DNA of 64,000 bases, from the NCBI RefSeq assembly GCF_009914755.1, contig NC_060936.1; one strand, written 5' to 3'. A program made the translations under genes and the position numbers. This stretch comes from the human T2T-CHM13v2.0 reference genome, Homo sapiens. Positions 17,937 to 18,983 of this stretch are shown here, one piece after another (positions within the stretch are counted from its first letter, which is position 1; each line of letters begins with the position of its first letter). The notes under the pieces were generated by a model, which searched no databases, was not told the DNA's origin, and saw only the letters and a list, made by a program, of their open reading frames with translations.

Positions 17937-18120
17937 TAATGACTTTTACTCTAAGTATGGATTCTTCTGATTTAATGCTGGGAGCTAAATGCAGTACTAA
18001 CTCGCTTTGCCACCCTAATTGTGAACTTTTCTGTCTGTCCAAATCTAATCTCTGATCTGGTGATGGCTGGCACTGGCACACCAAGATCATTTTATTTCTG
18101 ATATATTCCTCATGCTGTAG

Positions 18121-18123
18121 AAG
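18121..18123 (+). CDS. DIP2B: Candidate 3-nt microexon (AAG) of DIP2B; would insert one Glu (RYRS-E-DIHTE)
   Basis: ttcctcaTGCtgtag|AAG|gtaagt: acceptor, 3 nt, consensus donor; frame-preserving in a phase-1 intron. No transcript evidence available to me. Confidence 0.55.
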
Positions 18124-18983
18124 GTAAGTTGAATTCAGTTCAGCAAGCATTTATTGTAGACTTCCTATATTTTGAGAAAAATGTTAGATTGATAGAGAAG
18201 CATAGATGAAAACACAGGAGTTTTTCTTCTGTTTTTCTTGTTTGTCTTTTTTTGGGGGGAGGGGGGTGGGGGACGCTGTGGTCCCGCTCTGTTGTCTAGG
18301 ATGAAATGGAGTGACACAATCTCGTCTCACTCCAACCTCCGCCTCCTGGGCTCAAACGATCCTCCCTCCTTAGCTCGAGTAGCTGGGACTACAGACAAAC
18401 CCTGTCATGCCTGGATGATTTTTGTATTTTTTGTGGAGACAGGGTTTCACCATGTTGCCTAAGCTGGAGTTTTTCTCCCCCCCGCCCAAAACAAGGTTCA
18501 GAGGTGACACAGAAGAGGGAGACGGGAAGGCATACAGTGTCAAGAATGGGCTTCAGAATGGAGGTGGTGATGTCTGAGCCATTTTGAAGGATGGATAATT
18601 ATTTGGATATTCCAGGCAGAAGAAACATAATTTATCAAGGCAAGGGAATGTGAAATGGAAAATTAAAATATCCCCTCCTTTTCCTCTCCACCCTGCACAG
18701 AGTAGTGCCCTAATTAGTGTTGTGATATCCTATTTCAGAAGTTAGTCGTTGCTGCCTCTGCAAGAGGTCAGTACCTTAGAAATTAAGGAAAAATGGCATG
18801 ACTGCTTGTTGGCTTGCAAGGAATTCCTTGAACAATACCTCTCTGCTTTATGACTCAACCCGCCTACACATTTGCCTTTCAGTCACTCTGTCCCTATCTG
18901 TCTGTCTATGGAAAAATCCTAACAAGTAAGGTCACTTGGTCTGAGTTCTGGCCCTGGTCCTTAAAGCCCAGGTGTGCCACTCA

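What the first reader, a model, noticed from the sequence alone, without database searches (positions are those of the whole stretch)
17990..18135. Candidate 3-nucleotide neural-type microexon hidden between Alus
Seen: ...attttatttctgatatattcctcaTGCtgtAG|AAG|GTAAGT in a ~330-nt unique island between two Alus; only one other AG (18084-18085) in the ~120 nt upstream; a perfect TACTAAC (17995-18001, branch-point/QKI consensus) plus CTAAT motifs. Established: SRRM3/SRRM4-dependent neural microexons are 3-27 nt, frame-preserving, have strong donors and a UGC just upstream of the acceptor. Inference: inclusion turns TCA G|AT into TCA GAA GAT, adding one Glu (RYRS-E-DIHTEAVQ) in a conserved N-terminal segment of a neurodevelopmental gene. 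Ordinary aligners miss 3-nt exons, though specialist catalogues may list it. An alternative reading is a recursive AAG|GTAAGT site.
Basis: partly seen in the sequence, partly recalled or inferred. Interest (0 to 1): 0.85.

Follow-up and report, generated by a model that had tools for sequence, protein, structure and literature searches.

The report
Unproven 3-base exon look-alike in DIP2B
A three-letter stretch inside a DIP2B intron is flanked by signals that resemble those of real tiny brain exons, but nothing available here shows that cells use it, and a chance look-alike is the likelier reading.

Summary
Inclusion would turn S|D into S-E-D. The core motif is no more than chance gives: AGNNNGTRAGT occurs once in the window against 4.0 expected. 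TACTAAC occurs 8 times against 7.5 expected.

The wider architecture is rarer. It has a strong donor, a weak acceptor with a UGC, and only one AG in the 120 nt upstream. It resembles 19 RefSeq-annotated microexons on chr12, including MON2's cag|AAG|gtaagc.

I estimate one such chance site per 3-8 Mb. That gives about 6-16 in chr12's sense introns, against one annotated 3-nt exon that meets the same criteria.

No test that could have supported use did so:
- RefSeq lists one DIP2B transcript, without this exon.
- The same introns of DIP2A and DIP2C hold no counterpart.
- 0 of 63 short DIP2 N-terminal proteins carry S-E-D.
- No paper in the library pairs DIP2B with microexon or recursive splicing.

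All of these tests have low power. RNA-seq reads, VastDB and cross-species conservation were out of reach.

Best reading: an unused or noise-level pseudo-microexon (about 0.72). A real regulated microexon is about 0.1. A recursive splice site is unlikely.

The parts
18121..18123 (+). Candidate 3-nt exon AAG. If spliced in it would insert one Glu between Ser and Asp (RYRS-E-DIHTEAVQ).
   Evidence: Sequence. Frame of the flanking exons. Not in RefSeq.
18101..18120 (+). Putative 3' splice region: interrupted pyrimidine tract ending in tgtAG. PWM score 5.5 bits, the 11th percentile of 395 real acceptors.
18113..18115 (+). UGC motif, with 3 nt between it and the acceptor AG.
   Evidence: A TGC within 25 nt upstream is also present at 42% of 3930 decoy AG sites of equal or better acceptor score, so it discriminates weakly.
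18124..18129 (+). Consensus donor GTAAGT. AAG|GTAAGT scores 11.9 bits, the 89th percentile of 391 real donors.
   Evidence: Only 0.17% of 34186 GT sites in the control sequence score this high.
18094..18101 (+). Possible branch points: the A of TTTAT at 18094 and the A of CTGAT at 18101, 26 and 19 nt before the AG.
   Evidence: Read against the yUnAy consensus, which is recalled. This is inference only.
18084..18085 (+). The only other AG in the 124 nt upstream. As an acceptor it scores -1.4 bits (0.5th percentile, from the first, sequence-deduplicated PWM). It lies in a predicted local hairpin at about 18053-18089.
   Evidence: The fold as a whole is not unusual (z +0.86).
17995..18001 (+). 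TACTAAC heptamer. It is probably incidental.
   Evidence: 8 matches in the window against 7.5 expected. It lies about 120 nt from the acceptor, with the AG at 18084-85 in between.
17333..17929 (-). Two tandem Alu elements, antisense to DIP2B. They form the upstream edge of the island.
   Evidence: Masked repeat 17302-17929. Direct repeats at 298-nt spacing. SRP-like Rfam matches on the minus strand.
18260..18485 (-). Diverged, truncated Alu-like element, antisense. It forms the downstream edge of the island.
   Evidence: 76% identical over 94 nt to the upstream Alu. Weak SRP match at 18280-18415 on the minus strand. Not listed among masked repeats of 100 bases or more.
11930..12058 (+). DIP2B coding exon upstream of the intron. 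It ends ...RDERYRS plus the first base (G) of the Asp codon.
   Evidence: and the RefSeq rows supplied with the finding.
31395..31520 (+). DIP2B coding exon downstream. It starts with AT of the Asp codon, then IHTEAVQAALAK. It matches positions 82-111 of 111 of the Pfam DMAP_binding profile.

Best explanation
The site is most likely a pseudo-microexon. A consensus 5' splice site (AAG|GTAAGT) happens to lie 3 nt downstream of a weak but usable-looking TAG acceptor, in ordinary unique intronic DNA of the 19.3-kb DIP2B intron between the exons at 11930-12058 and 31395-31520. In this reading it is not spliced into DIP2B mRNA, or only at noise level. The donor would at most bind U1 non-productively, as many intronic GTAAGT sites do. 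The TACTAAC and the UGC are incidental. The sequence facts are shown. That the exon is not used is inferred from base rates and from blank, low-power tests.
For: The core motif is expected by chance: AGNNNGTRAGT occurs once in the window against 4.0 expected, and TACTAAC 8 times against 7.5.

Base rate. I built PWMs from 391 donors and 395 acceptors of RefSeq-select exons. I took acceptor-side and donor-side frequencies from 669,572 strand-bases of control sequence. Sites with acceptor >=0, at least 30 nt to the nearest upstream AG, <=1-2 AG in the 120 nt upstream and donor >=8 are expected once per 3.2-8.2 Mb. That gives 6-16 in the 52.4 Mb of chr12 sense introns and about 145-380 in about 1.2 Gb of intron, which is chr12 scaled up by its share of genome length. 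A direct count over exon lengths 3-30 gave 4 such sites in 669,572 strand-bases, the candidate included. RefSeq annotates only two 3-nt internal exons on chr12, and only MON2 meets those criteria.

RefSeq lists a single DIP2B mRNA, without this exon, and no functional element in the intron.

The same-phase introns of DIP2C (31 kb) and DIP2A (about 6 kb) hold no AG-NNN-GTRAGT with a pyrimidine tract. They show no similarity to the island; the best blastn E-value is 0.06, in low-complexity sequence.

0 of 63 short DIP2 N-terminal proteins from public sources have S-E-D. Of those crossing the junction, 31 by script (32 counting P0002 by eye) read S-D directly. One (P0001) has a 5-residue insertion that reads like run-through of a GTAAG donor.

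No paper in the library holds DIP2B together with microexon, micro-exon or recursive splicing.
Against: The whole architecture is rare among decoys and typical of real microexons.
- Of 2255 AG-N3-GT sites in the control sequence, only the candidate passes donor >=8, acceptor >=0, at least 30 nt to the nearest upstream AG and <=2 AG in the 120 nt upstream. 5 of 19 annotated microexons pass the same test.
- At the candidate's own thresholds only about 4 chance sites are expected genome-wide. That figure is over-fitted to the candidate.
- 8 of 19 annotated microexons share the feature of <=1 AG in 120 nt, against 0.7% of 3930 decoy acceptors of equal or better score.
- MON2's annotated 3-nt exon is the same word, AAG, with a similar setting.

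Every negative test has low power.
- Only 2 of the 63 proteins are of the DIP2B type.
- Full-length isoforms could not be searched.
- Ordinary aligners lose microexons shorter than 8-10 nt (PMC7821500, passages).
Confidence: 0.72

Rival explanations
1. It is a genuine, unannotated, tissue-restricted 3-nt microexon, neural, retinal or endocrine and probably SRRM3/4-dependent. SRRM3/4 bound at the UGC would help U2AF and U2 use the weak TAG acceptor, with a branch point at about 18094-18101. The consensus donor would secure U1. The product is DIP2B with one extra Glu inside the conserved RDERYRS|DIHTEAVQAALAK motif of the DMAP1-binding domain.
For: It is frame-preserving and makes no stop. The donor is at the 89th percentile and the acceptor at the 11th, the pattern seen in 19 annotated chr12 microexons. 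A UGC lies between the likely branch points and the AG. This matches the architecture described in bioRxiv 10.1101/2024.09.17.613571: strong 5'ss, weak 3'ss context, and a UGC in 74-79% of SRRM3/4-dependent microexons (passages). Upstream AGs are few, and the combination is rare among decoys. The base-rate comparison with MON2 gives roughly 6-26%, before discounting for the blank tests. The insertion point lies in a domain that matches Pfam PF06464, next to invariant residues. Real 3-nt microexons that add one charged residue are known, for example in CLTC (bioRxiv 10.1101/2021.09.08.459463, passages).
Against: There is no transcript, protein, paralogue or literature support. There is no UCUCUC-type tract within 50 nt upstream of the UGC; the nearest TCTCTG is about 60 nt upstream. 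The nearest upstream AG is 33 nt away, shorter than in most controls, where 13 of 19 have 46 nt or more. Two of the defining features, conservation and neural inclusion, are untested.
Confidence: 0.1
2. It is a recursive splice site. The upstream exon is first joined at the downstream AAG acceptor (18122-18123), directly in front of GTAAGT. This regenerates a 5' splice site, so the 19.3-kb intron is removed in two steps and nothing is left in the mRNA.
For: AAG|GTAAGT does juxtapose an AG with a consensus donor.
Against: That acceptor scores 1.6 bits, the 2nd percentile of real acceptors. A better TAG lies 3 nt upstream and would normally be chosen first, which leaves AAG in the mRNA; this rests on what I recall of tandem NAGNAG acceptors. 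The intron is only 19,336 nt, whereas the vertebrate recursive sites I recall lie in much longer introns. No paper pairs DIP2B with recursive splicing.
Confidence: 0.04
3. The strong donor at 18124 occasionally pairs with a distant upstream acceptor, for example one in the antisense Alus. This would give a long cryptic or poison exon that is degraded by nonsense-mediated decay.
For: Acceptor-like AGs score 8.4 bits at 17667 (33rd percentile) and 6.8 bits at 17833 (19th percentile), inside the antisense Alu. All five upstream options at 3 bits or more give exons of 289-475 nt with in-frame stops. Alu exonization elsewhere in DIP2B has been validated by RT-PCR (PMC10802380, passages).
Against: No such exon is annotated. 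The Alu exon in that paper is given at other coordinates, which I did not map to this window. Nothing here shows that these sites are used.
Confidence: 0.08

Closest known systems
MON2 3-nt exon (chr12:62523591-62523593, +; RefSeq Gnomon models)
   Same: The same exon word AAG, a gtaag donor (10.6 bits), one AG in the 120 nt upstream, and UGC motifs upstream.
   Different: MON2's exon is annotated in 8 transcripts. Its acceptor is much stronger (9.4 bits against 5.5). It has three UGCs and a CU-rich tract, and its nearest upstream AG is 49 nt away against 33.
ANO2 3-nt exon (chr12:5859570-5859572, -; RefSeq NM models)
   Same: A 3-nt frame-preserving exon with a weak acceptor, a strong donor (10.3 bits), upstream UGCs and no nearby AG.
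   Different: It is curated in NM transcripts. It has no AG in the 148 nt upstream and an even weaker acceptor (-0.5 bits).
SRRM3/4-dependent neural, retinal and endocrine microexons, for example the CLTC 3-nt microexon HsaEX0015816
   Same: Length, frame preservation, strong 5'ss, weak 3'ss context with a UGC near the AG, and one charged residue added to a conserved domain. The feature descriptions come from passages read.
   Different: Those exons have measured tissue-specific inclusion and deep conservation of the exon and its flanks. For the DIP2B site neither is known, and the UCUCUC part of the bipartite enhancer is not evident.
Recursive splice sites (AG|GTAAGT in long introns; recalled from the literature, not read here)
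   Same: An AG directly abuts a consensus donor.
   Different: The abutting acceptor is very weak (2nd percentile). A competing TAG lies 3 nt upstream, and the intron is short at 19.3 kb.

Membership tests
SRRM3/4-dependent microexon (3-27 nt) | Length 3-27 nt, multiple of three, no stop created | tested here: met
   AAG between phase-1 exons gives TCA GAA GAT, i.e. S-E-D.
SRRM3/4-dependent microexon (3-27 nt) | Strong 5' splice site | tested here: met
   AAG|GTAAGT scores 11.9 bits, the 89th percentile of 391 RefSeq-select donors.
SRRM3/4-dependent microexon (3-27 nt) | Weak 3'ss context with a UGC between branch point and AG | tested here: met
   The acceptor scores 5.5 bits, the 11th percentile. 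UGC lies at 18113-18115. The branch point is only inferred. A TGC within 25 nt is also present at 42% of comparable decoys.
SRRM3/4-dependent microexon (3-27 nt) | Bipartite enhancer: UCUCUC-type tract within about 50 nt upstream of the UGC (as described in passages read) | tested here: inconclusive
   Only isolated UCU and CUC triplets occur within 50 nt. The nearest TCTCTG is about 60 nt upstream of the UGC.
SRRM3/4-dependent microexon (3-27 nt) | Long AG-free zone or distant branch point | tested here: inconclusive
   The nearest upstream AG is 33 nt away, and there is only 1 AG in 120 nt. In the 19 controls the distance to the nearest AG is 46 nt or more in 13, and 8 have <=1 AG in 120 nt.
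SRRM3/4-dependent microexon (3-27 nt) | Measured inclusion in neural, retinal or endocrine transcripts | not testable with these tools
   Reads and VastDB are not available. RefSeq has no such transcript. 0 of 63 short DIP2 proteins carry S-E-D. No paper pairs DIP2B with microexon. Supplements are closed.
SRRM3/4-dependent microexon (3-27 nt) | Dependence on SRRM3/SRRM4 | not testable with these tools
   This needs knockdown, overexpression or a minigene. The two papers that hold both DIP2B and SRRM4 looked unrelated from the search listing.
SRRM3/4-dependent microexon (3-27 nt) | Conservation of the exon and flanking intron across vertebrates | not testable with these tools
As a proxy, the human paralogues DIP2C and DIP2A have no counterpart in the same-phase intron. 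A paralogue counterpart is not a defining feature.
Recursive splice site | A functional 3' splice site directly abutting a 5' splice site (YAG|GTRAGT) | tested here: inconclusive
   AAG|GTAAGT is present, but the acceptor scores 1.6 bits, the 2nd percentile, and a TAG lies 3 nt upstream.
Recursive splice site | Location in a very long intron (recalled criterion) | tested here: not met
   The intron 12059-31394 is 19,336 nt (RefSeq rows supplied with the finding).
Recursive splice site | Saw-tooth nascent-RNA profile or recursive lariats and junctions | not testable with these tools
   No reads are available. No paper holds both DIP2B and recursive splicing.

The most novel reading that the evidence does not exclude
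DIP2B carries an unannotated 3-nt microexon, dependent on SRRM3/4 and restricted to neural, retinal or endocrine tissue. It would insert a single glutamate into the invariant RDERYRS|D(I/V)HTEAVQAALAK motif of the DMAP1-binding domain, a position that a low-confidence model places inside a helix. This would create a tissue-specific DIP2B isoform with altered partner binding. It would have arisen in the DIP2B lineage only, since DIP2A and DIP2C lack a counterpart.
Probability: 0.1. Interest if true: 0.45.

Novelty: not a real feature. Interest (0 to 1): 0.18.

Why it matters
If real, this would be one more 3-nt microexon, a known kind of exon. It would sit in a gene linked to neurodevelopment and would alter a strictly conserved motif of the DMAP1-binding domain. 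That would give a concrete handle on tissue-specific DIP2B function, and it would show that curated annotation still misses the smallest exons. If it is a chance look-alike, as I think more likely, the value is methodological. A sequence-only match to the microexon architecture is expected a few hundred times by chance in human introns at moderate thresholds. Such calls therefore need junction reads or conservation before they are believed.

Tried and rejected
1. Paralogue test. I located the homologous exons of DIP2C and DIP2A, fetched both introns, and scanned them for AG-NNN-GTRAGT. I also ran local blastn of the island against them. The only hits were two sites in a DIP2C tandem repeat with no pyrimidine tract, and no meaningful similarity. 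This lowers the case for an ancient microexon but does not exclude one specific to DIP2B.

2. Protein evidence. The length rule limited hits to 292 aa or fewer, so full-length DIP2B isoforms were never examined. 0 of 63 proteins carry S-E-D.

3. Literature. I searched DIP2B with microexon, micro-exon, SRRM4, recursive splicing and cryptic exon, and DIP2A and DIP2C with microexon. Nothing was relevant. PMC4255278, PMC7205035, PMC5122892 and PMC5504648 were seen only as search listings. PMC6314551 was seen only as a listing plus the start of its abstract. Supplementary tables of microexon catalogues, which could list this exon, are closed.

4. TACTAAC as the branch point: rejected. It occurs at chance frequency, and the AG at 18084-85 lies between it and the acceptor.

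5. RNA structure. The fold of 17985-18140 is not unusual (z +0.86; 167 of 200 shuffles fold at least as well). The hairpin that covers the AG at 18084-85 is noted but not significant.

6. Rfam. There is no match inside the island, only Alu/SRP-like matches in the flanks.

7. Structure model of a DIP2B-type N-terminus (P0042 with 25 aligned fragments). Mean pLDDT is 57.8. The junction falls in a predicted helix at 95-119 where pLDDT is 53-72. This is too weak to carry an argument.

8. The first PWM was built after removing duplicate sequences, which distorted the donor percentile to 99.6. I rebuilt it from coordinates and used that version afterwards, except for the score of the AG at 18084-85, which comes.

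9. PWM limits. The PWMs and decoy rates rest on 20 exon-dense 10-kb stretches plus the window and the paralogue introns. Their base composition differs from typical long introns, so the rates could be off by about two-fold.

Full report
WHAT IS THERE

The window is part of DIP2B, on the + strand.
- TGC at 18113-18115
- tgtAG ending at 18120
- AAG at 18121-18123
- GTAAGT at 18124-18129
- TACTAAC at 17995-18001
- only one AG (18084-18085) between 17995 and 18118

The flanking coding exons are 11930-12058 and 31395-31520. They split an Asp codon after its first base. Their open frames read ...RDERYRS and DIHTEAVQAALAK.... Inserting AAG therefore gives S-E-D and cannot create a stop.

The site lies in about 330 nt of unique DNA. 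The island 17930-18250 has only its own match in the genome. Upstream are two tandem Alus and downstream a diverged, truncated one, all antisense to the gene. Rfam finds nothing inside the island. RefSeq lists no functional element anywhere in the intron.

IS IT MORE THAN CHANCE?

The core is not. AGNNNGTRAGT occurs once in the window on both strands, against 4.0 expected from shuffles. TACTAAC occurs 8 times against 7.5 expected.

To score the whole architecture I built position weight matrices from 391 GT donors and 395 AG acceptors. These came from RefSeq-select exons in 20 exon-dense 10-kb stretches of chr12 plus the window.
- The donor scores 11.9 bits, the 89th percentile of real donors.
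- The TAG acceptor scores 5.5 bits, the 11th percentile.
- The AAG acceptor that a zero-length recursive site would need scores 1.6 bits, the 2nd percentile.

As positive controls I took the microexons that RefSeq annotates on chr12. They include two 3-nt exons, in ANO2 and MON2. I fetched 19 loci. These real microexons mostly have weak acceptors, moderate to strong donors and few upstream AGs. 8 of 19 have 1 AG or fewer in the 120 nt upstream. The DIP2B site falls inside that range, and MON2's exon is even the same word (cag|AAG|gtaagc).

As negative controls I used 669,572 strand-bases: the window, the DIP2C and DIP2A introns and the 20 training stretches, both strands.
- Of 2255 AG-N3-GT sites, only the candidate passes donor >=8, acceptor >=0, at least 30 nt to the nearest upstream AG and <=2 AG in the 120 nt upstream.
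- Over exon lengths 3-30 there are 4 such sites, the candidate included.
- Multiplying acceptor-side and donor-side frequencies gives one chance 3-nt site per 3.2-8.2 Mb. That is 6-16 in the 52.4 Mb of chr12 sense introns, and about 145-380 if scaled to about 1.2 Gb.
- Against that stand two annotated 3-nt exons on chr12, of which only MON2 passes the same criteria.

This puts the sequence-only odds of a real exon at very roughly 6-26%. Two cautions apply. The 120-nt span for counting AGs was chosen after seeing the sequence. The control DNA is also more GC-rich than typical long introns.

TESTS OF USE

- RefSeq has one DIP2B mRNA (NM_173602.3), without this exon. The same annotation does hold 3-nt exons elsewhere, in Gnomon models for MON2.
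- DIP2C and DIP2A have the same intron in the same phase (S|DVHTEAVQ). Their introns hold no comparable site and no similarity to the island.
- The three protein word searches could reach only short proteins of 292 aa or fewer, because of the length rule. Of 63 proteins, 31 by script (32 with P0002 by eye) read S-D directly across the junction. One has a five-residue insertion that looks like read-through of the donor. None has S-E-D. Only two are of the DIP2B type.
- No paper in the library holds DIP2B together with microexon, micro-exon or recursive splicing.

Catalogues of microexons sit in supplements, which are closed. Passages of PMC7821500 say that ordinary aligners lose sensitivity below 8-10 nt and that 3-nt exons need dedicated tools. 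Absence from general annotation is therefore only weak evidence.

MECHANISM IF REAL

Passages of bioRxiv 10.1101/2024.09.17.613571 describe SRRM3/4-dependent microexons as having:
- strong 5' splice sites
- a weak 3' splice-site context, with the branch point and pyrimidine tract set back from the AG
- a UCUCUC...UGC enhancer
- a UGC in 74-79% of cases

Here a UGC is present, and plausible branch points lie at 18094 and 18101 (inference). No UCUCUC tract is seen within 50 nt. The TACTAAC cannot easily serve as branch point, because the AG at 18084-85 intervenes. That AG sits in a predicted hairpin, but the fold is not better than shuffles (z +0.86).

The Glu would enter the Pfam DMAP1-binding domain near profile position 81 of 111, between residues that are invariant or nearly so in 26 aligned fragments. 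A low-confidence model (mean pLDDT 57.8) places the junction inside a helix.

RIVAL READINGS

A recursive site is unlikely. The abutting acceptor is very weak, a TAG lies 3 nt upstream, and the intron is only 19.3 kb. What I know of recursive sites and of tandem acceptors is recalled, not read here.

The strong donor could also pair with Alu-borne acceptors. All five upstream options at 3 bits or more give exons of 289-475 nt with stops. An Alu exon elsewhere in DIP2B has been validated (PMC10802380, passages), at coordinates I did not map to this window.

VERDICT

The interpretation cannot be decided with the tools at hand. My best estimates are:
- unused or noise-level pseudo-microexon, about 0.72
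- real regulated 3-nt microexon, about 0.1
- cryptic long exon using this donor, about 0.08
- recursive site, about 0.04

If real, it would be a new member of a known kind, and possibly already in specialist catalogues.

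Noticed in passing
Proteins P0005, P0011, P0013, P0016-P0018, P0020, P0023, P0024, P0026-P0028, P0051, P0052, P0054, P0055: Macaque annotations (M. fascicularis, M. nemestrina, M. mulatta) hold many short predicted proteins that share a near-identical DIP2C-type exon (DVHTEAVQAALAKHKE...TPP). Their N-termini are unrelated, and they sit on several contigs. 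This suggests dispersed copies of this DIP2C exon in macaque genomes.
   Followed up: no
L009 about 4540-5515 and L008 about 6420-7900 (the DIP2C intron on chr10): There appear to be two tandem arrays in the DIP2C intron homologous to the DIP2B intron studied. One has a period of about 57 nt: 12-mer blastn hits recur at 57-nt spacing. The other has a period of about 50 nt and repeatedly translates as a SSPSILRITHSGAA-like string.
   Followed up: no
Protein P0001 (Coryphaenoides rupestris, partial): It has a five-residue insertion (GKTRN) exactly at the S|D junction. Its first residues read like translation through a GTAAG donor, so it is probably a gene-model artefact and not a microexon.
   Followed up: partly
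Protein P0030 (Sceloporus undulatus DIP2B-like, 99 aa): This predicted short isoform ends after ...RDERYRS with an unrelated 21-residue tail. That points to an alternative terminal exon in the same intron in a lizard annotation.
   Followed up: no
Outside the finding; the paper's coordinates are chr12:50,605,807-50,606,132, assembly not stated in the passages read: PMC10802380 reports an Alu exon in DIP2B, with both junctions validated by RT-PCR in cerebellum and liver. The coordinates do not coincide with a masked repeat at the same T2T numbers. I did not map it to this window.
   Followed up: partly
window 18053-18089: A predicted hairpin (9-10 bp with one bulge) covers the only AG in the AG-poor stretch upstream of the candidate acceptor. 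The fold of the region as a whole is not better than shuffles.
   Followed up: partly
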